Positions 41,696 through 53,485 of a stretch of DNA of 64,000 nt are shown piece by piece. Every line of letters starts with the position of its first letter. Position 1 is the first letter of the stretch. A program made the translations under genes and the position numbers. The stretch is from the NCBI GenBank assembly GCA_965223845.1, contig CBDCXR010000004.1, positions 6,080,001-6,144,000 of the forward strand. Direction: 5' to 3'. Under the pieces are notes generated by a model, which had not been told where the DNA came from, ran no database searches, and saw only the letters and a list, made by a program, of their open reading frames with translations. The DNA comes from Planctomycetota bacterium (GTDB lineage Bacteria > Planctomycetota > UBA8108 > SXIK01).

Positions 41696-42121
41696 GTGGA
41701 GCTCCAACGGACGCGGCTGCGCGCGGCGCACGCGAGACGCGAGGTCAACTGGATGAATTCGGATGGGGGAGGGTCGACGCTCTCCGCCGCGAATGCCTCC
41801 AAATTCGAAGGGCTCTTCGCGTGCGGTCATCGTGGATGCCTATTCTCCGTGAGGAGGTCGCGGAAATCCACGGACAGCGCGCCGCCGGCCGAGCGGCACG
41901 GGATTCTCGCTCCCGTGAGCTTCGAATGACGCCACGGCTCGGCGTATCGGTGGATGTTCGGTAGTCTCGCCACGGGGTGAATCCGGTGCAGAGGGCGAGC
42001 GATTCGGCTCTCGCCTCTTCGCGTTCGATCCGAGGAGAGCTTGACGTCGCGATCCCTAGATTCGCTAATCGTGTCGGGGCGGGCGTTCTCCAGGAGGGAA
42101 GGCGGAGCGAGGCGAAACCCG

Positions 42122-43420
42122 ATGTCCCAGCGAAAGATCCATCGGCGAGCGGTTTTCAAGCGAGCAGCGGGCGCGGCGACGGCGCTCGTGGCGCCGAGCT
42201 TCGTCCCCGCGTCCATTCTCGGCCGAAGCGGCCGCGTACCGCCGAGCGACAAGATCACCGTCGGCTTCATCGGAGTCGGGGGACACGGACGACAGCGGAA
42301 CCTCGAGCAGTACCTCGGCCAGGACGACGCGCGCGTCCTCGCCGCGTGCGACGTCGACTCGAACCATCTCGCGATCGCGACGAACCGGATCAACGAGGTT
42401 TACCGAAACAAGGACTGCGCGACGTACAGAGATTTCCGCGAGCTCCTCGCGCGGGACGACATCGACGCCGTCATGATCTCGACGCCCGACCACTGGCACG
42501 TCCTCATGAGCGTACTCGCCGTCCGCGCGGGGAAGGACGTCCAATGCGAGAAGCCGACACTCACGATCGACGAAGGGAAGATCCTCGTCCGAGAGGTGCG
42601 AAAGCACCGCAAGGTGTTTCAAACGAGCACGGAAGACCGATCAATCCCCGTCTACCACCGAATCGCGGAGCTCGTTCGGAACGGACGCATCGGGAAGCTG
42701 CAGACGATACGCGTCACGCTCCCCCAGCAACCGAAGGAGCCCGGTGACCCGACGCCGCAGCCCGTCCCGAAGGACCTCGACTACGATCTCTGGCTCGGCC
42801 CGGCGCCGTTTGCCCCGTACACGAAGGGGCGAGTTCATTTCCACTTTCGCTGGATCTCGGACTACTCGGGCGGAATCATTCCCGACTGGGGCGCGCACCT
42901 CTTCGACACCGCAGCGTGGGCGAGCGACACGGAGCGGAGCGGTCCGATTAAGGTGGAGGGAAGCGGAACGTTTTGGAAGGGCGGCCTTTACGATACCGCG
43001 AAGGACTATCACGTCGAGTACACGTACGCGGGCGGTCTCAAGATGATCCTCGATCACGGAGGGAGCCGGCTCCGCTTCGAAGGCACGAAAGGGTGGGTCG
43101 AGATTCCGCGGTGGCGCGCGGACATCATCGCGAGCGATCCGAAGATCCTCGATTCGAAGATCGGACCGGACGGAGTTCGTCTGTACACGAATCCAGCTGG
43201 CGAGCACCGTGATTTTCTCGACTGCGTGAAGTCGCGGAAGGACCCGTATTTCCCGGCGGACATCGGCCACCGCGTCTCGACGCTCTGCCACCTCGCCGAC
43301 ATCGCGCTTCGGCTCGGGCGCCCGCTCGAGTGGGATCCGAAGGCAGAGCGCTTTTCGAAGGACGATGAGGCGAACCGAATGTTGTCGCGTCCGATGCGTG
43401 AGCCGTGGAGCTTCGCGTAG
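42122..43420 (+). CDS. Tat-exported Gfo/Idh/MocA family oxidoreductase
   Basis: RRAVF, IGVGGHG, STPDHWH, CEKP, WLGPAP, DWGAHLFD. Confidence 0.93.
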   Translation: MSQRKIHRRAVFKRAAGAATALVAPSFVPASILGRSGRVPPSDKITVGFIGVGGHGRQRNLEQYLGQDDARVLAACDVDSNHLAIATNRINEVYRNKDCATYRDFRELLARDDIDAVMISTPDHWHVLMSVLAVRAGKDVQCEKPTLTIDEGKILVREVRKHRKVFQTSTEDRSIPVYHRIAELVRNGRIGKLQTIRVTLPQQPKEPGDPTPQPVPKDLDYDLWLGPAPFAPYTKGRVHFHFRWISDYSGGIIPDWGAHLFDTAAWASDTERSGPIKVEGSGTFWKGGLYDTAKDYHVEYTYAGGLKMILDHGGSRLRFEGTKGWVEIPRWRADIIASDPKILDSKIGPDGVRLYTNPAGEHRDFLDCVKSRKDPYFPADIGHRVSTLCHLADIALRLGRPLEWDPKAERFSKDDEANRMLSRPMREPWSFA

Positions 43421-43510: not shown

Positions 43511-44959
43511 GTGACGGAAATCGAGCGCAAGGCCATCGCGTCGAGCTCGCTCGCAACTCGACGTTCCGTGCTCCGGGCCGGCTCGATCGGCCTCCTCGGT
43601 CTAGGGCTCCCCGAGCTCGGCTATCTCCGCGCCGAATCGACGCGCGAGCCGAAGGCGAAGTCGGTCATCTATATCTTTCTCTCCGGCGGCCTCTCGCAGA
43701 TCGACAGCTTCGACATGAAGCCGGAGGCGCCCGAGAAGTACCGCGGGTCCTTCCGTCCGATCTCGACGAAGACGCCGGGTCTGCAGATCTGCGAACACTT
43801 GCCACTCCTCGCGGCGCGGAGCGACAAGTGGGCGATCTGCCGTTCGCTCACTCATCCATACAACGAGCATTCCCAGGGACACATGGTGATGCTCTCGGGG
43901 CGCCGCGACCTTCCGCCCGGTTTCGACGCGAGCAAGCCACGCGCGGAGGATTGGCCGTCGATCGCGGCGTGCGGCGCGAAGCTGCTCGAGTCTCGCGGCG
44001 CGCTGCCGCCGGCGATGGTTCTTCCCGAACGACTCGTTCACCGGACGGGCCGCGTGATCCCCGGACAGTTTTCCGGAAAGATGGGCGCCGGAGCCGAGCC
44101 GTGGTTCATCGAAGCTTCGAGCTTCAACGCCGCCTCGTACGGCGCGTACCCGACGTTCAATTTCCACCACGAGCGGGGTTCGGAGCAGCGGTCGAATCCC
44201 GCGTTCGCGGTGCCGGAAATCTCACTTCCGGAAGAGATGACACTCGGACGACTTCGCCGGCGCGCCGACATCCTCCGTCTTGTGAACGCTCAGCAGCGCG
44301 CGCTCGAGACCGCCCCGCCGGTCACCTCTTACCGGCGTTACCACGATCTCGCGATTCGACTTCTCGCCGACTCGAAGACGCGGGCGGCGTTCGATCTCTC
44401 CAGCGCGGACGCGCGTACGCTCGATCGCTACGGACGCAATTCCTTCGGCTGGTCGCTCCTTCTCGCGCGCCAGCTCGTTGAGGCGGGAGTTCAGCTCGTC
44501 CAGGTGAACCTCGGGAACAACGAGACGTGGGACACGCATCAAAAGGCGTTTCACAATCTCGAGCACTACTTGTTCCCGCCGACCGACCGGGCCGTCTCGG
44601 CGCTGCTCGACGATCTGGGCGAGAGCGGGCTCCTCGACGATACACTCGTCGTCATGGCGAGCGAGTTTGGCCGGACGCCGCGCATCTTCAGCATCGGGAA
44701 GGGCAAGCTCCCGGGGCGAGACCACTGGGGCGCGGTGCAGACCGTCTGGTTCGCGGGCGGGGGAGTCGCGGGCGGCGCGGTGGTGGGTTCATCGGACGCA
44801 ACGGGCGGGCACCCGAAGGACTCGCCGCAGACGCCGGAGAGCTTCGCCGCGACGATCTTCGACGCCCTGGGGATCCCGCGCGACGCCCACTGGGAGGAGA
44901 AACTCGGGCGTCCCCACCCGCTCTATCGAGCGGACCCGATCCCCGGGCTCGTGAGCTGA
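43511..44959 (+). CDS. DUF1501 family protein
   Basis: RRSVL, GGLSQIDSFDMKP, WDTH, SEFGRTP, GRDHWG. Confidence 0.93.
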   Translation: MTEIERKAIASSSLATRRSVLRAGSIGLLGLGLPELGYLRAESTREPKAKSVIYIFLSGGLSQIDSFDMKPEAPEKYRGSFRPISTKTPGLQICEHLPLLAARSDKWAICRSLTHPYNEHSQGHMVMLSGRRDLPPGFDASKPRAEDWPSIAACGAKLLESRGALPPAMVLPERLVHRTGRVIPGQFSGKMGAGAEPWFIEASSFNAASYGAYPTFNFHHERGSEQRSNPAFAVPEISLPEEMTLGRLRRRADILRLVNAQQRALETAPPVTSYRRYHDLAIRLLADSKTRAAFDLSSADARTLDRYGRNSFGWSLLLARQLVEAGVQLVQVNLGNNETWDTHQKAFHNLEHYLFPPTDRAVSALLDDLGESGLLDDTLVVMASEFGRTPRIFSIGKGKLPGRDHWGAVQTVWFAGGGVAGGAVVGSSDATGGHPKDSPQTPESFAATIFDALGIPRDAHWEEKLGRPHPLYRADPIPGLVS

Positions 44960-45305: not shown

Positions 45306-45986
45306 ATGAGCCCGAAGCCTGAGGCGGAGCGGACGAACGGGGACCTTGCCTGGTTCGTCACTCTCCGCCGAGAGGAGTACCGCGGCGAAGCCCGCGCCAA
45401 CCTGATTCGCCTCATCGGCATCGCCGGCTTCTACGCGATCGAGCTCATCAGTTACTACGGGCTCCGGGTCGGGTTCCTGGAGATTCCGCGACAGACAGGC
45501 ATCGACCGGGAGTTTCACGTCGCCGTCACCGCGCTCGCTCTCACCTGGACCGCCGTCGGGCTCGGTGTTCACTTCGCGCTGCGCGCAAGGGTCTTTCCCG
45601 ACGTCCTCAAGTTTGTCTCCACCGGCGCCGACGTCGCGCTCCTCACGTCGGTCCTCGTTCTCGCCGACGGCCCGCGGAGTCCGCTCGTCGTGATCTACTT
45701 CCTCGTGCTCGCTCTCGCTGCGCTCCGCTTCAGCTTGCCGCTCGTTCGTTTTGCCACCGGATCGTCGATCGCCAGCTATCTCTTTCTGAGCGGCTACGCG
45801 CGCTGGTTCGCCGAGCGTGACCTCACCGTTCCTCGCTACGCGCAGTTCGTCGTTCTGCTCGCGCTGCTCCTCGCCGGTGTGGTGCTCGGTCAAGTGCTGC
45901 GCCGCATCCGCGCCATGGTTCGAGAACACGCGAACGCGACGACGGCCGCTCCGCGAACGACGCCGACCGGGGAGCCGAAGCGATGA
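45306..45986 (+). CDS. Polytopic membrane protein, first gene of the radical SAM-Lgt operon
   Basis: RBS GGAGG; about 6 hydrophobic segments; ATGA overlap with the next gene. Confidence 0.8.
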   Translation: MSPKPEAERTNGDLAWFVTLRREEYRGEARANLIRLIGIAGFYAIELISYYGLRVGFLEIPRQTGIDREFHVAVTALALTWTAVGLGVHFALRARVFPDVLKFVSTGADVALLTSVLVLADGPRSPLVVIYFLVLALAALRFSLPLVRFATGSSIASYLFLSGYARWFAERDLTVPRYAQFVVLLALLLAGVVLGQVLRRIRAMVREHANATTAAPRTTPTGEPKR

Positions 45987-46564
45987 GCGGCTTACCATCG
46001 CTCGTTCGGTGCCAGGTTTGCAGCGAACTCAACAACCCCGGTCGATCCATCTGTTGGCTCTGCGAGCAGCCGCTCGAACCCCGAACCGTCGATCCCGTGA
46101 TCCGCGGCCCGGAGATCGAGCCAGTGAGCGAAGAGGGAGCGTCTCTCTTTCACTCCAGCTTGGTGGTCGCGCCGGCTCTCCTCCTCGTTCTTCTCGGCGT
46201 CGGGCTCGTTTGGCCGGGCCTCGGGATCGTGCTGGCGATCGTCCTCGTGATCCCGTTTCTCCGAACGGCGGCGCTCGCGCGCCGGCGCGCTGAGGCCGGC
46301 GCGGAAGACGCGTTTCCATTCCTGGTCGGCTCGTTCGTCGGCTCCACACTCGCGACGTTCGTCGTCATCGCGGTCGTCGGCGTCGTCGGATTCGGCACGT
46401 TTTGCATTACGTGTTTCGGAGTCGGGGTATCCACCAACAACATCCATCTAGCGGTGCTCGGTTCGGGACTTCTCGCGATCATCGTGCTCATTCCTGTTTG
46501 TCGGAGGCTCGCGCGCTGGGTGCGGAATCGCTGGCGGCGCGACGTCAAGCGACGCAGTCTCTAG
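45983..46564 (+). CDS. Membrane protein with N-terminal zinc ribbon and membrane-embedded Cys
   Basis: CQVC...CWLC; about 4 TM segments; GFGTFCITCFG; basic C-terminal tail. Confidence 0.8.
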   Translation: MSGLPSLVRCQVCSELNNPGRSICWLCEQPLEPRTVDPVIRGPEIEPVSEEGASLFHSSLVVAPALLLVLLGVGLVWPGLGIVLAIVLVIPFLRTAALARRRAEAGAEDAFPFLVGSFVGSTLATFVVIAVVGVVGFGTFCITCFGVGVSTNNIHLAVLGSGLLAIIVLIPVCRRLARWVRNRWRRDVKRRSL

Positions 46565-46579
46565 CTAGGTCTTCTTCTC

Positions 46580-48001
46580 ATGCAGCTTCGCGATCACGTC
46601 TTCCTCGGGACGACACAGAGTCTCTGTCCGAGCTGCCTCGGACTCGTCCAGGCCAAGATCATCGAGCGTCGGGGACGGGTCTATTTTCGGAAGCGCTGCC
46701 CCGAGTGCGGCGTGCGTGAAGACTTCGTCTGCTCCGATCGCGCTCAGTTCGACCGCCTAGAGCTCAACTCGCCGGGTAAGGTTCCGCACCAGAGCGGAGT
46801 TCTTCCCGAGCGGGGTTGTCCCTACGACTGCGGGCTTTGCACCGAGCACGAGCAGCACACCTGTGTGGGCCTCGTCGAAATCACATCCGCGTGCAATCTC
46901 AAATGCCCGATGTGCTACGCGTCGAGCGGCCCGGGCGGGCGGCACCTCGAGTTCGACGAGTGTCGGAGTGCCATCGAGCGCCTCGTCGACGTCGAAGGTC
47001 GCCCCGAGGTGCTCCAGCTCTCCGGCGGCGAGCCGACCATCCATCCCGAGTTCGATCGCGTGCTCTCGTTCGCGTGCGCACAGCCGATCGACATGGTGAT
47101 GATCAACTCGAACGGCATCCGCTTCGCTAACGACCCGGAGTTTCTGCGGCGGGTTGCGGAATACCGAGATCGGCTCGAAGTCTATCTTCAGTTCGACGGG
47201 TTTCGGCCGGAGACGAGCGCCGCGCTCCGCGGAGAGCCGCTCGTCGAGACGAAGCTTCGAGCCGTGGAGGCGCTCGGCGAAGCGGGCGTCCGCGTGATCC
47301 TCGTGAGCACGCTTCAAGCGGGAGTGAACGACGGTGAGATCGGTGCGATTGTGAACTACGGCCTCGAGCGGCCGTGGGTCACCGGCGTGAGCTTCCAACC
47401 GGCGACCTACTCCGGCCGGCACGTCTTACCCGACGAGCTCGAACGACGGATCACGTTTCCCGACGTCGTCCGGGCGATCGTCGAGCAGACGAACGGCGTC
47501 TTCGCCGTCGAAGATTTCCTGCCCCTCCCCTGCGCTCACCCGAACTGCCACACTCTTACCTACGCGTACCGGCGCGGAGGGACGATCGTTCCGCTCACGC
47601 GCTTCATCGACGTCCGGAGCCACGTCGATCTCCTATCGAACGGCATCACGTTCACCCGACCCCGCGCGCGCGCGTTGATCGAGCAGTACGTAGAGCGCGC
47701 GAACTGCGGGGACGGCGGCTGCGGGTTCGGTGCGTCCGTGCCGGCGCCTCTTGTTGCCGTCGCGCAAGAGTTCTTCGGAAAAGCGATGCGCGAAGACCTT
47801 TCGCCGAGCGATGTCTTCCGGATCACGATCACTTCGTTCCTCGATGCCTACAACTTTGATGTGCGGCGACTCATGAAGTGCTGCATCCATCACGTACTTC
47901 CGAGTGGACACGTCGTTCCGTTCTGCGCCTACAACGTACTCTACCGCGACGGCCACGTATCATTGCCGCAACTGGTCGCGAATTCGCAAGCTGAGATCTA
48001 G
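46580..48001 (+). CDS. Radical SAM enzyme of the Tes/GDGT-MAS (MJ0619)-like family
   Basis: N-terminal CPSC...CPEC, GCPYDCGLC...HTC, CNLKCPMC, SGGEPT, YLQFDG, VSFQP, C-terminal DAYNFDVRRLMKCCIH...PFCAYN. Confidence 0.9.
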   Translation: MQLRDHVFLGTTQSLCPSCLGLVQAKIIERRGRVYFRKRCPECGVREDFVCSDRAQFDRLELNSPGKVPHQSGVLPERGCPYDCGLCTEHEQHTCVGLVEITSACNLKCPMCYASSGPGGRHLEFDECRSAIERLVDVEGRPEVLQLSGGEPTIHPEFDRVLSFACAQPIDMVMINSNGIRFANDPEFLRRVAEYRDRLEVYLQFDGFRPETSAALRGEPLVETKLRAVEALGEAGVRVILVSTLQAGVNDGEIGAIVNYGLERPWVTGVSFQPATYSGRHVLPDELERRITFPDVVRAIVEQTNGVFAVEDFLPLPCAHPNCHTLTYAYRRGGTIVPLTRFIDVRSHVDLLSNGITFTRPRARALIEQYVERANCGDGGCGFGASVPAPLVAVAQEFFGKAMREDLSPSDVFRITITSFLDAYNFDVRRLMKCCIHHVLPSGHVVPFCAYNVLYRDGHVSLPQLVANSQAEI

Positions 48002-48034
48002 TGCCGCGGCGAACTACGAACGGCGGAGCGCAGC

Positions 48035-48769
48035 ATGAACTGGAATGATCCGATTTGGATCTACTCCGCGATCATGGTTGCGGCGGTCGCGGCGGGATGG
48101 CTCGTGAGCCGCCGAACGCAGAGTCGTGCTCCGCTGAGCGGTTTCGAGAAGCTCGCGATCGCGCTCGGCGCTTTTTGCGGGGCGATGATCGGAGCGAAGC
48201 TGCCCTTCGTCCTTCTCGACTGGGACGGACTCCTCTCCGGACGTGCCTGGCTCGAGAACGGGAAAACGATCACATTCGGATTGGTCGGCGGATACGTCGG
48301 CGTCGAGCTCGCGAAGTGGGCGCTAGCGATTCGCGTGAAGACCGGCGATTCGTTCGCCGTGCCCGTCGCCCTGTCGATCGGGATCGGTCGTCTCGCCTGC
48401 TTTTCCGTGGGTTGCTGTCACGGGACGGAGACCGCGCTCCCTTGGGGAGCTGATTTCGGCGACGGGATCCGCCGGCACCCGACTCAACTCTACGAATCGG
48501 CCTTCCATCTTTCGGCGACGCTCGCGCTCGCGTACCTGCTCCGTTTCGGTCTCTTCCGCGGACAGCTCATCAAGCTGTATTTCATCGCCTACTTCGTCTT
48601 CCGCTTCGCGAGCGAGTTCATCCGCCCGGAACCCGAGGCATGGCTCGGTCTCACCGTGTATCAGTGGGCGACGATCGCGTTCATTCCGCTTTTCGGCGCG
48701 CTCTGGATCGTGGATCGGCGGAGGTTCGCGCTCGAGTCGGCGCAGGTGAACACGCGTGCCGGAGCGTAG
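48035..48769 (+). CDS. lgt: Prolipoprotein diacylglyceryl transferase-like protein (divergent paralog)
   Basis: IGRLACFSVGCCHG, PWG, HPTQLYE, RFASEFIR, about 7 TM segments. Confidence 0.85.
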   Translation: MNWNDPIWIYSAIMVAAVAAGWLVSRRTQSRAPLSGFEKLAIALGAFCGAMIGAKLPFVLLDWDGLLSGRAWLENGKTITFGLVGGYVGVELAKWALAIRVKTGDSFAVPVALSIGIGRLACFSVGCCHGTETALPWGADFGDGIRRHPTQLYESAFHLSATLALAYLLRFGLFRGQLIKLYFIAYFVFRFASEFIRPEPEAWLGLTVYQWATIAFIPLFGALWIVDRRRFALESAQVNTRAGA

Positions 48770-48784: not shown

Positions 48785-51700
48785 CTACTCGCAACCCGAG
48801 TACTCGTCGCAGCCCAGTGCGGGATCCTCGCCGCAATCGGGGTACGGCGCCGCCGGTCCCGCGCCCGCGCCGAACATGAAGTTGAGGAGCCTCAAGGCGT
48901 CGGTGATCACCACCGTGCCGTCGGCGTCCGCGTCCGCGGCGTCCGCGCAGCGGAAAGGATCGGGCACGGAGAAGAGCTGGATGAGGATCGAGACTGCGTC
49001 CGAGATGTCGATTTGGCCGTCGCCATTCGCATCCCCGCGAAGGAAGGCTCGCGATTCTTCGCCTACGAATTGATCCCACGTGTACGCAGCGGTTTCGTGC
49101 GCGCCTTCGACGCGCTCGGCGGTGACGTACTCGACACTCCCGTCGAATAGCTCGAGCGGAGAGAGCGAGTACGGACCGGATCGCTGCGAATCGTAAATCT
49201 GCTCACCCGGGAAGACGAGGCGGAAGCCCTCGGTCTGCGGCACGGCGAGATCGAGAATCGCGTGCGCGGTCGCCACCGTCTCGCCCGCTGGATCGAGCAG
49301 CGTCCCCGCGATGACGAAGCGCCCCGCGATGTCGGCTTCGATCATCCCGTCGATCCAGAGCGAGCCGAACTCGGCCGCACCGGCCCCGCCGTCTCCTTCG
49401 CCTCCGGCGGCCGGCGCGAGTCCCGATTCGAGCTCGCCGCCGAAGCGAACCGAGTCCGAGCGCACCTCGAGCTGCGTGGTTCGCTGACGAAGGAACGTAC
49501 CGGCGGGGTCGGACGCTGCAACCTCGATGAGGTGGAGACCTGCTTCGTCACCACTCAGCTCCGCAGTGTAGACCCCGTCGCCCGCGGACGCGTCCGGGGC
49601 GACGCCGTTATCGAGGAGATCGACGAGATCGAGCGTCCCGTTGGGGCGCCATAGGCTTGCGGTCGCGTTCGCACCGGTGATCGGTGCGCCGAGCTCCATC
49701 AGGGTCGCGGTGAGCGCGGTCGAGCCCGCGATATCGATCTCGTCGGGATCGAGCACGACATCGAGGACGAGGTCGCTTTCCGAGTAGAGCTCGACCGTAT
49801 ACGGCACGGGAACGTTGTCGACCGGGTTTTCGAGCACGGCGGTGTACACGCCGACCTCACCACTCGCGAAGTCGTAGAGCTGAACTTGGTGACCTTCCCC
49901 GTCGAGGAAGCTTTGATATTCGACCCCTTCGCCTGGATTCGACGGTGTATGCACGATCACTTCCGGTCCCGGGTCGTGAACATCGAACTCGAGTCCGCCA
50001 GGAACGCCGATGTTCAGAATCACGATGATCGACTCCGAGGTGTCCGAGAGCATGAGCAGCTCGGCGGTCCGCCCCGGCTCGAGGAAACCGGAATAGAACG
50101 TACCGAGCGAGTAGCTCGACCCGACGCCCCCCGCCGCACCGGGAACGTCGTTCTCCGCGCCCCCTCCGGCGACGCCCGCGACGGGGTTCTCGACGTGCTC
50201 GAGCACATCGCGAAGGAGAACCGTGATCGACTCGCCGCCGCGCCCGAGCGTCCCGTGGTTCTCCGCGACGCGGTGAGTCACAGCTCCGGCGATTCCGCCG
50301 AGCGCACTCGCAGCGCACACGCGATCGTCGTGTTCACCGCAGCTGAGAACGGGATCGAGACTCGAGCGCCCGCCCGTTCCCGCGACGAGATGAACGCGGG
50401 CCCCGCGCGTGTCGATTACCGCGCGATTGAACCGCGCGAGGAACTCCGCGGTCTGCTCCGCGGCGCCGGCGAACTCGTCTTCCGTGATCGAACCCGACAC
50501 CCCGTCGAGGGGGCGACTCGCGAGCTCGCCGCGCACCTCGATCCGCGCGCGCGGCGTTCCCAAGTTCGGTGTTCCAAGGAGGGCGAATCGGCGCACCCGG
50601 CCGTACTCGGACTCGGCGAGGTACAGCCGCGCCGCGAGTCCCGCCGCGCCGTACGCGACGATGTCGACCTGATCCGGTGCGCGCCCGAAATTTGCGGCGA
50701 GCTTCGCGTCGAGAGCTTCCAGATGACGCGCGAGTGAGAGCGCCCCGCGAGTGATCCCCGGCTCGATGCGAAGCGAACGGAACCACGCGGGCGCCGCCGG
50801 GGCGGCGAGGTTCGCGTTCGCCTGCGCCGATGCGAGCAGCTCCCGCCATCGCTCGGTGTCGTCGCCGAGCGATGGCTCGCGACTCGCGACGAGAATCACG
50901 GGCACCGGCAGCCGGAGCTCGACCTGGCGGCCGGCGCCGACTTCGACGTCGACGCTGAGAACACGGTTGAGGTCGCCGGGCAGAGCCGGTCCGCCGATCA
51001 AGCCCGCACGGTAGCGGAGCTGAGTGGGGACGCCATCGCCCGGCGATCGCAGGATGAATCGGCCCGAAGGATCGACCTGCGCCACCTCCACTTCGACACC
51101 GCCTTCGTCGAGTCGCACCACCGCACCGCGGTTGACCGTCGTTCCCGCGCGATCGCCGTAACGAACGACGCCGGCGAGGAGCGGCTCCGGTGGAGCGCCG
51201 ACATCCGCCCGACAGAGCTCGCTCGGCGGTCCGCGCCGCGCGAAACCTCTCTCGGCGACGCCCAGCACGCGATACTCGTTTCGCCCCGGCGGCACCCCGC
51301 CTTCTCGGTAGGGCGGAAGCCCGACGCGGGCGACGACGACGCCGTTGCGGAGGATATCGTACGCGTCGTACTCCGGCGCCGGATTCCAGTCGAGCTCGAC
51401 GACGCGCGGTCCGACGAGCGCGCAGCCAAAGCCCTCGATCGGCGGCAGCTCCGACGCGTCGACGGTCACACGACACGTCGCGCGCGATTCCGGCGCCGCC
51501 GGATCGAGCACCTCGATGAGATGCGTGCCGTCGGCGACGTTCGGGATGAAGAACGACGTCGTCGTCGGCGGCAGCGGTCCGCTCGCGTCTCGACCGTCGA
51601 TGCGAACGAGGAGCGACGAGTAGCGATCCGCCAGGCGCCAGCGCACGGCGATCCCGGCGTCGGTTTCTTCGCACGCGAGATCTCTCACCGCGAGCGTACG

Positions 51701-53485
51701 AACGACGATGCGAACCATTTCCGAGCGAAGCGCCGGATCCCCGTTCGCTTCGACGAAGTAGATATGCTCACCGCGTTCGACGCCGATATCCGTGAAGTCC
51801 ATCAGCCGACCGGAAAGTGGCTGGGGGTTCACGAGGGTGCCGTCGCGGTAAACGTTCTGGAACGCGTAGCGCCCGTCGATCGTCCACGCGAGATGCACTC
51901 GTCCGCCCGGGATCTGCTTCGCGCGGAGATGCCGCGGCGCGCCGTCGGTCGCTTCATCGCCGATGAAAACGACGACCGCCAAGCCCACCCCGCCATCGCG
52001 GATATGCGGAATGCCGGGCGCACCGATCGTGAGCTCACCGCGGCCACCGCCCGAGAAATCTTCGAGGCCGCCGACCGACGACCCGACCCCCGCGCCGGAG
52101 ACGCCCGCGCTGAATGCGGCACCATCGTTCGAGCGCATCGCGGCGAGCAGGATCTCGGCCGGGAGAGCGTTTCCGCCGAACGCGAGGTAGGCCGCTCCGC
52201 GTCCTTCCCCGCGCAGCGGAGCACCGATGAACGCCTCGGCGATTCCGTCGCCGTTAGCGTCCGGCGTGAACGCGACGGCCGACCCGGCGCGTTCGCCGTC
52301 CGATCCGAGGTACGTCGTCTGCGCGACGACGGAAACGTCGACGCTCGGAACGCCGCTTCTCAGTCGCGCTCCACCGGCGATGAGAAACGCGGCACCGGAG
52401 ACGCGGTCGAAAGCGAGCCCCGGCGATCCGAGAAGCAGATCGGGAGCGCCATCGCCCGTCGCGTCGCGCCCCCCCGCGATCGCCGCCCCGAGCTCGCTCG
52501 CCGGCAGAGCGGAGCGAACTTCGACGAGACGATCACCATCCGGCGCGTCTGCGTTCGGGAGTCCGTCGAGCCCGGCGCGACCGAAGTAGACGTAGACGGC
52601 ACCGCCCCCAAATGCCGGCGCGCCGGCGGCGAAGTCGCGTATTCCGTCTTCGTCGGTGTCTCCGAGCGGCGCGATCGCCGCGCCGAAGAGGCTCCCGTCC
52701 GCCGGTCCATGAGCGACGATCGCGTTCTCTCCCGGTAGCGCCGCGACATCGATCGACGCGAAGGCTCCGGGCCGCGCGAGCTCGAGATCGACGAGCGCGA
52801 TGATCTTTCCGCGGCGCTCGCCGGTCGCCTCGTGGAGGCCGCGAGGGATCCCGAGAACGACATCGTCCCGCCCGTCGCCGCTCGCGTCTCCGACCCCGAC
52901 TCCGCTCTCGCCGAGACGACCTTCGCCCGCGAGCGACGAAGTGAGAAAGACGACGCCGTGAGGCGAGAAGGTGAGATCGATGACGCCAGGCAGTGCGTCC
53001 GATCCGAGGAGAAGGACGACGCCGCTCTCACCGCCCGCGACGATGCCACCCGGCGCGCCGATCAAGACGTCGTCGAATCCGTCGGCGTTGACATCGCCCG
53101 CTCCGGCGACGAAGCGGCCGAATTCGTCGCCCGGACCCGCGCCCGAGCGAATTTCGACGATGAACTCGCGCCCCGGATGGAGCGTCGCGCGGAGTGTCGG
53201 AGGACGTCCGCCGAAGACGAGGAACACACGCCCGGGGGTTCTCGCGCTTCCCGGTGCACTGACGATGACGTCCGTGCGACCGTCGCCGTTGACGTCGCCT
53301 GCGTCGGCGATGTGGGCGCCCGCGCCGAACGTCCCGTCGCCGGCGAAGAGCTCGAGACGATTCCCAGGGTTGTCGCCATCGAGGCGCGTTTCGAGCGGAA
53401 GCTGCGCGCATACCGGTACCACCGACGCGAGGAAGATCGCGAACGCGAAGGTAGCTCGCAGGATCCGCTTCAAAGATCGAGACAC
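48785..53485 (-). CDS. Large secreted protein: FG-GAP/integrin-alpha propeller, FN3-like repeats, degenerate alpha/beta-hydrolase, choice-of-anchor-X-like domain, dockerin-like domain
   Basis: About 7 GDVNGDG..D...GAP repeats; LLGTPNLGT; LLDNGVAPDASAGDGVYTA; FLRGDANGDGQIDISDA...CADAAD...CGEDP. Confidence 0.9.
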   Translation of the reverse strand: MSRSLKRILRATFAFAIFLASVVPVCAQLPLETRLDGDNPGNRLELFAGDGTFGAGAHIADAGDVNGDGRTDVIVSAPGSARTPGRVFLVFGGRPPTLRATLHPGREFIVEIRSGAGPGDEFGRFVAGAGDVNADGFDDVLIGAPGGIVAGGESGVVLLLGSDALPGVIDLTFSPHGVVFLTSSLAGEGRLGESGVGVGDASGDGRDDVVLGIPRGLHEATGERRGKIIALVDLELARPGAFASIDVAALPGENAIVAHGPADGSLFGAAIAPLGDTDEDGIRDFAAGAPAFGGGAVYVYFGRAGLDGLPNADAPDGDRLVEVRSALPASELGAAIAGGRDATGDGAPDLLLGSPGLAFDRVSGAAFLIAGGARLRSGVPSVDVSVVAQTTYLGSDGERAGSAVAFTPDANGDGIAEAFIGAPLRGEGRGAAYLAFGGNALPAEILLAAMRSNDGAAFSAGVSGAGVGSSVGGLEDFSGGGRGELTIGAPGIPHIRDGGVGLAVVVFIGDEATDGAPRHLRAKQIPGGRVHLAWTIDGRYAFQNVYRDGTLVNPQPLSGRLMDFTDIGVERGEHIYFVEANGDPALRSEMVRIVVRTLAVRDLACEETDAGIAVRWRLADRYSSLLVRIDGRDASGPLPPTTTSFFIPNVADGTHLIEVLDPAAPESRATCRVTVDASELPPIEGFGCALVGPRVVELDWNPAPEYDAYDILRNGVVVARVGLPPYREGGVPPGRNEYRVLGVAERGFARRGPPSELCRADVGAPPEPLLAGVVRYGDRAGTTVNRGAVVRLDEGGVEVEVAQVDPSGRFILRSPGDGVPTQLRYRAGLIGGPALPGDLNRVLSVDVEVGAGRQVELRLPVPVILVASREPSLGDDTERWRELLASAQANANLAAPAAPAWFRSLRIEPGITRGALSLARHLEALDAKLAANFGRAPDQVDIVAYGAAGLAARLYLAESEYGRVRRFALLGTPNLGTPRARIEVRGELASRPLDGVSGSITEDEFAGAAEQTAEFLARFNRAVIDTRGARVHLVAGTGGRSSLDPVLSCGEHDDRVCAASALGGIAGAVTHRVAENHGTLGRGGESITVLLRDVLEHVENPVAGVAGGGAENDVPGAAGGVGSSYSLGTFYSGFLEPGRTAELLMLSDTSESIIVILNIGVPGGLEFDVHDPGPEVIVHTPSNPGEGVEYQSFLDGEGHQVQLYDFASGEVGVYTAVLENPVDNVPVPYTVELYSESDLVLDVVLDPDEIDIAGSTALTATLMELGAPITGANATASLWRPNGTLDLVDLLDNGVAPDASAGDGVYTAELSGDEAGLHLIEVAASDPAGTFLRQRTTQLEVRSDSVRFGGELESGLAPAAGGEGDGGAGAAEFGSLWIDGMIEADIAGRFVIAGTLLDPAGETVATAHAILDLAVPQTEGFRLVFPGEQIYDSQRSGPYSLSPLELFDGSVEYVTAERVEGAHETAAYTWDQFVGEESRAFLRGDANGDGQIDISDAVSILIQLFSVPDPFRCADAADADADGTVVITDALRLLNFMFGAGAGPAAPYPDCGEDPALGCDEYSGCE

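What the first reader, a model, noticed from the sequence alone, without database searches (positions are those of the whole stretch)
45306..48769. Tetraether-synthase-like radical SAM enzyme coupled to a divergent Lgt: candidate undescribed lipid/lipoprotein cross-linking system
Seen: four co-oriented genes with an ATGA overlap and 15- and 33-nt gaps, encoding a membrane protein, a Zn-ribbon membrane protein, a radical SAM enzyme and an Lgt-like protein. The radical SAM enzyme has the full Tes/GDGT-MAS layout (rubredoxin-like CPSC/CPEC, CPYDCGLC cluster, CxxxCxxC, C-terminal CC...PFC). Established: archaeal Tes joins unactivated lipid tail carbons to make membrane-spanning lipids, and Lgt transfers diacylglyceryl from phosphatidylglycerol to a Cys thiol. 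Inference: a dedicated Lgt lipidates an operon-encoded membrane protein and the radical SAM enzyme links the acyl tails, giving a macrocyclic or membrane-spanning lipid anchor, or a lipo-RiPP. I know of no characterised pathway with this pairing.
Basis: partly seen in the sequence, partly recalled or inferred. Interest (0 to 1): 0.88.

Follow-up and report, generated by a model that had tools for sequence, protein, structure and literature searches.

The report
Tes-like radical SAM enzyme with Lgt-fold partner
A planctomycete operon pairs a relative of the archaeal enzyme that welds lipid tails together with a stripped-down copy of the bacterial lipoprotein-lipidating membrane enzyme; the two always occur together and are often fused, so they probably form one uncharacterised membrane-lipid-modifying machine.

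Summary
Four co-oriented genes lie at 45306-48769, with the stated ATGA overlap, 15- and 33-nt gaps and Cys motifs.

The radical SAM protein matches GDGT-MAS/Tes over its full length (7TOL, E 1.8e-76). It scores below the NCBIfam cut-offs for Tes and TrsS and sits in a separate tree clade.

Its partner has the Lgt fold and keeps the phosphatidylglycerol-site network. It has lost the essential HGGL histidine, N146 and E151, and carries invariant cysteines instead.

Three results link the pair:
- The Lgt-like gene is present in 58 of 66 loci that have enough downstream sequence.
- A second clade has the opposite gene order, in 14 of 20 loci.
- 60 natural LGT-radical SAM fusion proteins exist.

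In 151 Planctomycetia genomes, each gene was found in 42 and both in 41.

The first membrane protein has no cysteine, the second protein's conserved cysteines form a zinc ribbon, and the peptide-binding histidine is gone.

Best reading: a two-part, sometimes fused, enzyme that modifies the tails of membrane glycerolipids. The product is unknown. I found the pairing in no searched paper.

The parts
45306..45986 (+). memA: 226-aa membrane protein of about six helices with no cysteine. It is a standalone copy of a signalling-type 6TM membrane domain (PilS-like, adenylyl-cyclase-like). It is an accessory part of the module.
   Evidence: ORF. Zero Cys. Pfam: the window protein matches nothing, but 6 of 27 orthologues match PF25323 6TM_PilS and 3 match DUF4118. 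Atlas clusters are PilS-like. AF2 model pLDDT 92. Best folds are the membrane domains of ImcA (8wcn, Z 14.8), AC9 (6r3q, Z 14.2) and AC5 (Z 12.8). Upstream of the radical SAM gene in 28 of 72 loci that have at least 1800 nt upstream. In the class sample, strong hits (130 bits or more) in 20 genomes, all among the 41 that carry the pair.
45983..46564 (+). znB: 193-aa protein with an N-terminal CxxC...CxxC zinc ribbon followed by hydrophobic, probably transmembrane segments. It overlaps memA by ATGA. It is a frequent but fast-evolving companion, usually placed directly upstream of the radical SAM gene.
   Evidence: ORF. Overlap. Cys positions and hydrophobic segments. Found by tblastn in 20 of 80 loci. 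A profile built from those 20 finds it at 45 bits or more in 42 of 80 loci; 39 have the ribbon and 27 end within 150 nt of the radical SAM start. Pfam gives only a weak DUF7577 hit (E 0.053).
46580..48001 (+). Radical SAM enzyme of the GDGT-MAS/Tes/TrsS superfamily. It has a rubredoxin-type ribbon, an N-terminal auxiliary cluster motif, the CX3CX2C radical SAM cluster and a C-terminal auxiliary cluster motif. It belongs to a distinct clade whose members are linked to an Lgt-like partner.
   Evidence: Pfam. NCBIfam: TrsS 345 bits (cut-off 490) and Tes 301 bits (cut-off 450). 7TOL E 1.8e-76 over residues 11-457. Ligand columns. Tree. About 60-75% identical orthologues in Pirellulales, Gemmataceae, Isosphaeraceae, Planctomycetaceae and a few Myxococcota.
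48035..48769 (+). Lgt-like protein: a 244-aa, 7-TM protein with the Lgt fold. It keeps the equivalents of R143, Y235, R239, E243 and R246, and the H-P-x-Q-L-Y-E motif. It lacks H103, N146 and E151, lacks the N-terminal arm, and has only about half of the periplasmic head. C122, C127 and C128 are invariant.
   Evidence: Pfam LGT 102.6 bits. Below all NCBIfam lgt cut-offs. Alignment A1. Profile match to 5azb, E 1.4e-11. Motif table. AF2 pLDDT 91.8. Foldseek: only 5azb is significant (E 1.1e-5, TM 0.60). Residue roles are taken from passages of Mao et al. 2016.

Best explanation
The core of the locus is an obligate two-part enzyme. One part is a cytoplasmic radical SAM protein of the GDGT-MAS/Tes superfamily. 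The other is a 7-TM membrane protein derived from Lgt. In other planctomycetes the same two parts are made as one polypeptide, with LGT at the N-terminus and the radical SAM domain at the C-terminus.

Shown:
- The two genes are linked, co-occur and are fused.
- The radical SAM part keeps every metal-binding motif of GDGT-MAS.
- The Lgt part keeps the arginine, tyrosine and glutamate network that holds the diacylglycerol-phosphate of phosphatidylglycerol in E. coli Lgt. It has lost the HGGL histidine and the N146/E151 polar residues that canonical transfer to a lipobox cysteine needs.

Inferred:
- The Lgt-derived part no longer lipidates proteins. It anchors the radical SAM enzyme at the membrane and binds or presents a glycerophospholipid.
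- The radical SAM part abstracts hydrogen from an unactivated acyl-chain carbon and, like Tes, most likely couples two tails through its C-terminal cluster. The product would be a macrocyclic or membrane-spanning diacyl lipid.
- znB (Zn-ribbon membrane protein) and memA (signalling-type 6TM domain) are lineage-specific accessories. They could act as an electron-donor or scaffold and as a lipid-sensing or regulatory subunit. They are not substrates.

The chemistry and the product are not shown.
For: Linkage:
- The Lgt-like gene is present in 58 of 66 orthologue loci that have at least 1000 nt downstream. In 49 of them it lies within 400 nt on the same strand.
- In a second radical SAM clade (38-44% identity), 14 of 20 loci have an Lgt-like gene adjacent: 11 directly upstream, 2 downstream and 1 on the other strand. 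Nothing else is conserved there.

Fusion:
- Of 64 long homologues of the Lgt-like protein, 60 carry PF01790 plus PF23545, and 59 of those also carry PF04055. Their LGT domains are 54-70% identical to the window's. See also P0132 and P0167.

Co-occurrence in 151 Planctomycetia genomes:
- The radical SAM gene is in 42, the Lgt-like gene in 42, and both in 41. Seven genomes have the two genes on different contigs.

Phylogeny:
- One 62-row clade (support 99) holds 20 of 21 Lgt-adjacent and 12 of 12 Lgt-fused radical SAM proteins.

Active sites:
- The GDGT-MAS metal motifs are all conserved.
- GDGT-MAS binds bacterial phosphatidic acid in two tail pockets.
- The Lgt site-II residues are invariant in 27 orthologues.

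Paralogy:
- The genome has a separate canonical lgt with intact HGG and signature motifs.
Against: - No lipid product is known. I found no report of diabolic-acid-type or macrocyclic lipids in cultured planctomycetes in the papers searched.
- The conserved site of the Lgt fold faces the periplasmic leaflet (Mao 2016; positive-inside reading of the sequence), whereas the radical SAM domain must be cytoplasmic. How one lipid reaches both sites is unexplained.
- Met439 and Tyr459, completely conserved in 1000 archaeal Tes homologues, are Thr and His here. The pocket around the reacting carbon therefore differs, although both residues are dispensable in GDGT-MAS.
- The second Lgt-linked clade lacks two of the three C-terminal cluster cysteines, so C-C coupling via that cluster may not be general.
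- 8 of 66 loci have no Lgt-like gene within 6 kb.
- Kin genomes are not independent, so the co-occurrence counts overstate the evidence.
Confidence: 0.5

Rival explanations
1. The Lgt-like protein transfers diacylglyceryl to a cysteine of an operon-encoded membrane protein (or of a peptide, as a lipo-RiPP). The radical SAM enzyme then cross-links the anchor's acyl tails.
For: The protein has the Lgt fold and retains the R143/R239 network. Membrane ORFs lie upstream. znB-like genes are found in 42 of 80 loci.
Against: memA has no Cys and no conserved Cys column. znB's conserved Cys are a CxxC...CxxC ribbon at the cytoplasmic N-terminus, with no signal peptide or lipobox. H103 of HGGL is absent; it is essential and is the proposed lipobox-binding site. 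Clade C has only the pair conserved. The gaps of 15 and 33 nt leave no room for a precursor peptide between the genes.
Confidence: 0.06
2. The Lgt-like part is still a transferase but uses its own invariant cysteine (C122, in place of N146) as acceptor. This would form a covalent S-diacylglyceryl-enzyme that tethers the lipid while the radical SAM part modifies its tails. Alternatively, it passes the diacylglyceryl to a non-protein acceptor.
For: C122 is conserved in all three Lgt-linked clades, exactly within the signature motif next to R143. The leaving-group network Y235/R239/E243/R246 is invariant.
Against: There is no base equivalent to H103. The other two cysteines are specific to some clades. 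A covalent adduct would give a single turnover unless it is resolved. A third paralogue with the same Cys motif has no radical SAM neighbour.
Confidence: 0.14
3. The pair modifies lipids by a radical reaction other than tail-to-tail C-C coupling, for example C-S bond formation, methylation, or hydroxylation-type functionalisation. It might act on the very-long-chain (omega-1)-hydroxy C28-C35 fatty acids typical of planctomycetes, which are long enough to span the bilayer from a periplasm-facing Lgt site to a cytoplasmic active site.
For: The enzyme lies outside the Tes clade. The pocket residues Met439 and Tyr459 are changed, and two extra Cys (C318, C435) are conserved throughout the three Lgt-linked groups. 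Such fatty acids are reported in a planctomycete (Table 1 of PMC6995999, passages). The two conserved sites lie on opposite membrane faces.
Against: No methyl-donor or cobalamin domain is present. All GDGT-MAS clusters are retained in the window's clade. The module is in only about a quarter of sampled Planctomycetia, whereas these fatty acids are described as common. I tested no correlation.
Confidence: 0.2
4. The Lgt-derived protein is only a passive membrane anchor with no ligand binding. The radical SAM enzyme finds its substrate unaided, as archaeal Tes does.
For: Archaeal Tes needs no such partner (Lloyd 2022). Canonical catalytic residues are lost.
Against: A mere anchor would not keep R119, Y186, R190, E194, R197 and the H-P-x-Q-L-Y-E motif invariant across 27 orthologues. 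Most of these are also kept in the fused clade and clade C. An anchor also does not need a 7-TM fold conserved at 44-63% identity.
Confidence: 0.08

Closest known systems
GDGT-MAS / tetraether synthase Tes (M. jannaschii MJ0619, PDB 7TOL/7TOM; NCBIfam NF045702)
   Same: The match is full-length (E 1.8e-76). Both have the rubredoxin-type C-C-C-H/C ribbon, an N-terminal cluster (three Cys plus His), the CX3CX2C cluster and three C-terminal cluster cysteines. GDGT-MAS is a lipid-tail enzyme that also binds bacterial phospholipid.
   Different: The window protein scores 301 bits against a cut-off of 450. It sits in a separate clade. Met439 becomes Thr and Tyr459 becomes His, and there are two extra invariant Cys. 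It is bacterial, presumably acts on ester lipids, and is obligatorily tied to an Lgt-fold membrane protein, which archaeal Tes is not known to need. Its activity is untested.
TrsS radical SAM (seleno)protein (NCBIfam NF045646)
   Same: This is the best-scoring curated model (345 bits), with the same superfamily architecture.
   Different: The score is below the cut-off of 490. True TrsS representatives fall in the other main clade and are fused to methyltransferase, MobA-like NTP-transferase/HD, DUF5714 or AMP-binding domains, never to LGT in my sample. I found TrsS function described in no paper; a review table lists only its name.
E. coli Lgt, phosphatidylglycerol:prolipoprotein diacylglyceryl transferase (PDB 5AZB/5AZC)
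   Same: Both have the 7-TM fold. The equivalents of G142, R143 and G154, of H196-P-x-Q-L-Y-E202, and of Y235, R239, E243 and R246 are conserved.
   Different: H103 (HGGL), N146, N149 and E151 are not conserved; Cys stands at the N146 and E151 positions. The alignment starts at E. coli residue 28, so the arm-1 and beta-1 region is missing. The head is about half the length. It is a paralogue beside a canonical lgt. It scores below the NCBIfam lgt cut-offs.
Mss, bacterial membrane-spanning lipid synthase of Thermotoga and Thermoanaerobacter (Sahonero-Canavesi 2022)
   Same: Mss is a radical SAM enzyme that couples two acyl tails of bacterial lipids, the reaction I infer here (passages).
   Different: The authors describe Mss as only remotely related to Tes. 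No Lgt partner is mentioned in the passages I read. I made no sequence comparison with Mss.

Membership tests
Tes / GDGT-MAS (NF045702) | Four-domain layout with a rubredoxin-type site, an N-terminal [4Fe-4S] motif, the CX3CX2C cluster and C-terminal [4Fe-4S] cysteines | tested here: met
   Alignment to 7TOL. Motif definitions from Lloyd 2022 passages. Columns C16, C19, C40, C/H43, C80, C84, C87, H90, C105, C109, C112, C323, C434 and C449 are conserved in the window's clade.
Tes / GDGT-MAS (NF045702) | Score at or above NCBIfam's equivalog cut-off (450 bits) | tested here: not met
   301 bits. Of the 30 sampled tree representatives, 2 clear the Tes cut-off, P0200 (480.6 bits) and P0236 (592.6 bits).
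Tes / GDGT-MAS (NF045702) | Met439 and Tyr459, completely conserved in 1000 archaeal homologues | tested here: not met
   They align to T418 and H438 (numbering offset checked). The clade shows T in 9 of 9 rows and H in 8 of 9 rows. Both residues are dispensable for activity in GDGT-MAS.
Tes / GDGT-MAS (NF045702) | Placement within the Tes clade of the superfamily tree | tested here: not met
   FastTree of 159 rows. The window lies in a 111-row side, separated (support 97) from the 48-row side that holds the representatives passing the Tes and TrsS cut-offs. The tree is unrooted and has local supports only.
Tes / GDGT-MAS (NF045702) | Csp3-Csp3 coupling of two lipid tails | not testable with these tools
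   This needs anaerobic enzymology and lipidomics.
TrsS (NF045646) | Score at or above the cut-off (490 bits), and clade membership | tested here: not met
   345 bits. The five sampled representatives that pass the TrsS cut-off all lie on the other side of the tree.
Lgt (PF01790, TIGR00544) | LGT domain and 7-TM Lgt fold | tested here: met
   PF01790 102.6 bits against a cut-off of 24.9. The AF2 model matches only 5azb (E 1.1e-5, TM 0.60).
Lgt (PF01790, TIGR00544) | NCBIfam equivalog score | tested here: not met
   TIGR00544 44.9 bits against 118.9. NF000778 82.7 bits against 334.
Lgt (PF01790, TIGR00544) | HGGL motif with essential H103 (proposed lipobox-peptide site) | tested here: not met
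   The aligned segment has no His in any of the 34 radical-SAM-linked Lgt-likes tabulated. The genome's canonical Lgt has S-H-G-G. All H103 mutants are inactive.
Lgt (PF01790, TIGR00544) | Signature motif G142-R-L-G-N-F-I-N-G-E-L-W-G154, including N146 and E151 | tested here: not met
   G, R and the final G are kept. N146 becomes C122 and E151 becomes C127. E151A and E151Q are inactive in E. coli.
Lgt (PF01790, TIGR00544) | PG site-II and leaving-group network: R143, Y235, R239, E243, R246 | tested here: met
   R119, Y186, R190, E194 and R197 are invariant in 27 orthologues. They were mapped through the 5azb alignment.
Lgt (PF01790, TIGR00544) | Transfer of diacylglyceryl from PG to a lipobox cysteine | not testable with these tools
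   This needs a biochemical assay.
6TM_PilS-like sensor membrane domain (PF25323), for memA | Match to the family model, and a fold like signalling 6TM domains | tested here: inconclusive
   The window protein has no Pfam hit. 6 of 27 orthologues match PF25323 (best E 4.6e-6). Fold matches are to the ImcA, AC9 and AC5 membrane domains at Z 12.8-14.8, near the level that helical bundles can reach by chance.

The most novel reading that the evidence does not exclude
The pair is a trans-bilayer lipid-coupling machine. The Lgt-derived subunit holds a phospholipid whose head group sits in the periplasmic leaflet, as Lgt holds PG, and threads its tail through the central cavity. The cytoplasmic Tes-type radical SAM domain welds that tail to the tail of an inner-leaflet lipid. 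This would make a genuinely membrane-spanning bacterial lipid and solve, in one complex, the topological problem that is still open for archaeal tetraether synthesis.
Probability: 0.1. Interest if true: 0.88.

Novelty: new variant of a known kind. Interest (0 to 1): 0.64.

Why it matters
What bacterial Tes homologues do is an acknowledged open question. It bears on who makes membrane-spanning and branched tetraether lipids, which are used as palaeoclimate proxies (Zeng 2022, Lloyd 2022 and the 2025 and 2026 papers read all say the function is unconfirmed).

This locus defines a large, coherent bacterial clade that is not Tes proper. It comes with an obligate Lgt-fold membrane partner, often fused. 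That warns against counting these genes as tetraether synthases in metagenome surveys.

It also gives a compact, directly testable two-gene (or one-gene fusion) system. And it would be the first case I know of in which the Lgt fold is recruited for something other than lipoprotein maturation.

Tried and rejected
- Complex prediction for the radical SAM and Lgt-like proteins scored 0.00. The verdict was 'no answer', so it counts neither way.
- Sequencing runs: no RNA holder is listed, so I laid no reads and make no statement on expression.
- The promoter and terminator scan found 0 promoter-like sites and terminator-like sites at the chance level. It was uninformative.
- A single-sequence PDB search with the Lgt-like protein found nothing. 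A profile of 27 orthologues found 5azb.
- The JGI name '7,8-dihydro-6-hydroxymethylpterin dimethyltransferase' on some homologues, and the Pfam domain name HMPTM, raised a methanopterin-pathway reading. I rejected it because Lloyd 2022 report that they could not corroborate that activity and reassign MJ0619 as GDGT-MAS (passages).
- tblastn alone made znB look poorly conserved (20 of 80 loci). A profile raised this to 42 of 80. That profile was built from 20 of those same loci.
- I looked for other conserved neighbours by all-against-all BLAST of ORFs in the 80 loci plus part of the window and in the 20 further loci. Apart from shadow ORFs and a DUF1501 gene in 9 loci, nothing recurs.
- I tested no correlation between the module and any lipid phenotype.
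- Rows left out of the tree: representatives shorter than 400 aa, and one row whose matched envelope was 330 aa or less.
- Papers: I saw only passages found by term, never whole texts. Supplements were closed. Supplementary Fig. 5 of Lloyd 2022 (similarity network) and Supplementary Table 2 and Fig. 4 of Zeng 2022 may show these bacterial clusters or their neighbourhoods, and could bear on my statement that the pairing is not in print.
- That statement rests on searches (0 papers; 9 papers, none containing 'Lgt'), and ('Lgt' and 'diacylglyceryl' occur 0 times in Zeng 2022).

Full report
**1. Observation**

The window region 45306-48769 holds four co-oriented ORFs on the + strand:

| Name used here | Coordinates | Length |
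|---|---|---|
| memA | 45306-45986 | 226 aa |
| znB | 45983-46564 | 193 aa |
| radical SAM protein | 46580-48001 | 473 aa |
| Lgt-like protein | 48035-48769 | 244 aa |

- The ATGA overlap was read at 45983-45986. The gaps are 15 and 33 nt.
- Pfam gives Zn_ribbon_HMPTM plus Radical_SAM for the third protein and LGT (102.6 bits) for the fourth.
C16, C80, C84, C87, C105, C109, C112, C434, C435 and C449 are invariant in 27 orthologues, and C19 and C40 are nearly so. Position 43 is His in most orthologues.

**2. The radical SAM protein**

- It aligns over residues 11-457 with GDGT-MAS of M. jannaschii (7TOL, E 1.8e-76).
- Lloyd et al. 2022 (passages) define the sites: the rubredoxin site C9X2C12X20C33X2H36; the N-terminal cluster C73/C77/C80 plus His; the CX3CX2C cluster; and a C-terminal cluster with labile Met439.
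- The corresponding columns are conserved in the window's clade: C16, C19, C40, H/C43; C80, C84, C87, H90; C105, C109, C112; C323, C434, C449.
[quoted passage not shown] Here they align to Thr418 and His438.
- Two further cysteines, C318 and C435, are conserved throughout the three Lgt-linked groups but not in the true-Tes rows.
- NCBIfam scores are 345 bits for TrsS (cut-off 490) and 301 bits for Tes (cut-off 450).

**3. Tree of the superfamily**

- I built a FastTree of 159 rows: representatives of 50%-identity clusters that are at least 400 aa long, plus locus proteins.
- The window lies in a 62-row clade (support 99). That clade contains 20 of 21 radical SAM proteins with an adjacent Lgt-like gene and 12 of 12 Lgt-fused ones.
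- I scanned 30 sampled representatives against NCBIfam. Two passed the Tes cut-off and five passed the TrsS cut-off. All seven are on the other, 48-row side of the tree. All 20 sampled from the window's 111-row side were below both cut-offs.
- So the protein is Tes-like in architecture but is neither Tes nor TrsS.
- Caveats: the tree has local supports only and a midpoint root.

**4. The Lgt-like protein**

- The genome has three LGT-family genes.
- One is canonical (197.8 bits) with intact S-H-G-G and G-R-L-A-N-F-I-N-G-E-L-W-G motifs. One is the gene studied here. The third is another paralogue.
- A profile of 27 orthologues matches E. coli Lgt (5azb, E 1.4e-11).
- The AF2 model (pLDDT 91.8) matches only 5azb significantly.
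- Residue roles come from passages of Mao et al. 2016.
- Invariant here: the equivalents of G142, R143 and G154, of H196-P-x-Q-L-Y-E202, and of Y235, R239, E243 and R246. These form the second PG site and the leaving-group network.
- Not conserved: H103 of HGGL, where all mutants are inactive and which is the proposed lipobox-peptide site; N146; N149; and E151, where A and Q mutants are inactive.
- C122 stands at the N146 position and C127 at the E151 position, followed by C128. All three are invariant in the window's clade and, apart from C127 in P0328, in the sampled fused rows.
- The N-terminal arm region is missing and the periplasmic head is about half as long.
- By the positive-inside rule and the E. 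coli structure, this conserved site faces the periplasmic leaflet and the C-terminus is cytoplasmic. That fits fusions in which the radical SAM domain follows the LGT domain.

**5. Linkage of the pair**

- 80 genome loci were fetched with the radical SAM protein. They come from Pirellulales, Gemmataceae, Isosphaeraceae, Planctomycetaceae and a few Myxococcota, at 58-72% identity.
- tblastn finds the Lgt-like gene in 62 of the 80.
- Counting only loci with at least 1000 nt downstream, it is present in 58 of 66. In 49 of these it lies within 400 nt on the same strand. Eight loci lack it within 6 kb.
- In 20 loci around more distant homologues (about 34-44% identity), 14 have an Lgt-like gene adjacent: 11 directly upstream, 2 downstream and 1 on the other strand. 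Only the pair is conserved there.
- Of 64 long homologues of the Lgt-like protein, 60 are LGT plus Zn-ribbon fusions, and 59 of those also have the radical SAM domain. Their LGT domains are 54-70% identical to the window's, and they come from Pirellulales, Thermoguttaceae and unnamed metagenomes.
- In a sample of 151 Planctomycetia genomes, the radical SAM gene was found in 42 and the Lgt-like gene in 42, with 41 in common. One genome has only the radical SAM gene. One has only a broken Lgt-like gene with an in-frame TGA. In seven genomes the two genes lie on different contigs.
- These genomes are kin, so the counts are descriptive, not a test.
- The module is patchy. It is in about a quarter of the sampled Planctomycetia. 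In a 151-genome sample of the window's own phylum, an orthologue at 70% identity turned up in only one genome besides the window's, and none in the six relatives of its own class or order.

**6. The upstream genes**

*memA*
- It has no cysteine and no conserved Cys column.
- 6 of 27 orthologues match PF25323 (PilS-like 6TM).
- Its model (pLDDT 92) resembles the 6TM membrane domains of ImcA and adenylyl cyclases at Z 12.8-14.8. That is near the level helical bundles can reach by chance.
- Strong matches occur in 20 of the 151 genomes, all of them carriers of the pair. Weaker matches lie in 525-950-aa frames, as expected for sensor proteins that share the domain.

*znB*
- It has a CxxC...CxxC ribbon followed by hydrophobic, probably transmembrane segments.
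- A profile finds it in 42 of 80 loci, 27 of them directly upstream of the radical SAM gene.
- Neither protein has a lipobox.

**7. Interpretation**

- Shown: an obligate, sometimes fused pair made of a Tes-superfamily radical SAM enzyme and an Lgt-fold membrane protein.
- The membrane protein keeps its lipid (PG) site but has lost the features needed for lipoprotein modification.
- Inferred: it is a membrane-glycerolipid tail-modifying enzyme, most likely coupling tails as Tes does. GDGT-MAS itself binds bacterial phosphatidic acid with one tail in each of two pockets.
- Unexplained: how a periplasm-facing lipid site cooperates with a cytoplasmic active site.
- Also unexplained: why the second Lgt-linked clade lacks two C-terminal cluster cysteines, and why the fused clade lacks two N-terminal cluster ligands.
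- The product is unknown. I did not test the (omega-1)-hydroxy C28-C35 fatty acids reported in a planctomycete as possible substrates.

**8. Literature**

- Bacterial Tes homologues, including those of Planctomycetota, are noted as functionally unconfirmed.
- No paper in the library holds both 'diacylglyceryl transferase' and 'tetraether synthase'.
- None of the 9 papers holding at least three of the four search terms mentions Lgt.
- No NCBIfam model claims the fusion or the Lgt-like protein.

**9. Verdict**

- The finding is real, and the pairing is undescribed in what I could search.
- It is a new variant of known kinds, of moderate to high interest, and directly testable.

Noticed in passing
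G000:C4:2877489-2878133 (L003:1357-2241, - strand; L109:8346-9230, - strand): A third LGT-family paralogue (294 aa, PF01790 80.7 bits) carries the same G-R-x-G-C-F-x-x-G-C-C-F-G variant of the signature motif but has no radical SAM neighbour. It lies divergently beside dxr and an RseP-type M50 protease.
   Followed up: partly
L100, L101, L104, L106, L107 (other Planctomycetota genomes): These loci hold tandem pairs of Tes-like radical SAM genes without any Lgt-like gene. They form their own clade and share several other conserved neighbour ORFs, so they look like a separate uncharacterised system.
   Followed up: no
proteins P0206, P0243, P0232, P0172, P0218: Members of the clade that holds the true TrsS representatives are fused to a methyltransferase, a MobA-like NTP transferase (with or without an HD domain), DUF5714 or an AMP-binding domain. 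This hints at quite different, possibly cofactor- or small-molecule-directed, roles.
   Followed up: no
alignment columns: [quoted passage not shown] The clade with Lgt upstream lacks the equivalents of C434 and C449 (Ser/Thr and Asp instead). Cluster content therefore differs among the three Lgt-linked clades.
   Followed up: partly
window 48785-53485 (- strand): A 1566-aa ORF converges on the operon. By eye it has FG-GAP-like Gly/Asp-rich repeats and a dockerin-like C-terminus. I ran no family search on it.
   Followed up: no
window 42041-43420 and 43511-44959 (+ strand): A Gfo/Idh/MocA oxidoreductase and a DUF1501 protein lie directly upstream. A DUF1501 gene also lies near the module in 9 of the 81 sources clustered. 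This is probably local synteny rather than function.
   Followed up: partly
G239:C166:722-1325: In the only sampled genome that has the Lgt-like gene without the radical SAM gene, the Lgt-like gene is broken: two pieces with an in-frame TGA, on a short contig.
   Followed up: no
whole genome G000 versus relatives: The window's genome is Planctomycetota but not class Planctomycetia: one genome appears in both samples (G003 = G159). None of its six relatives of the same class or order has a homologue at E 1e-30 or better. Its copy is nevertheless 70-75% identical to Planctomycetia ones, which suggests horizontal acquisition or patchy loss.
   Followed up: partly
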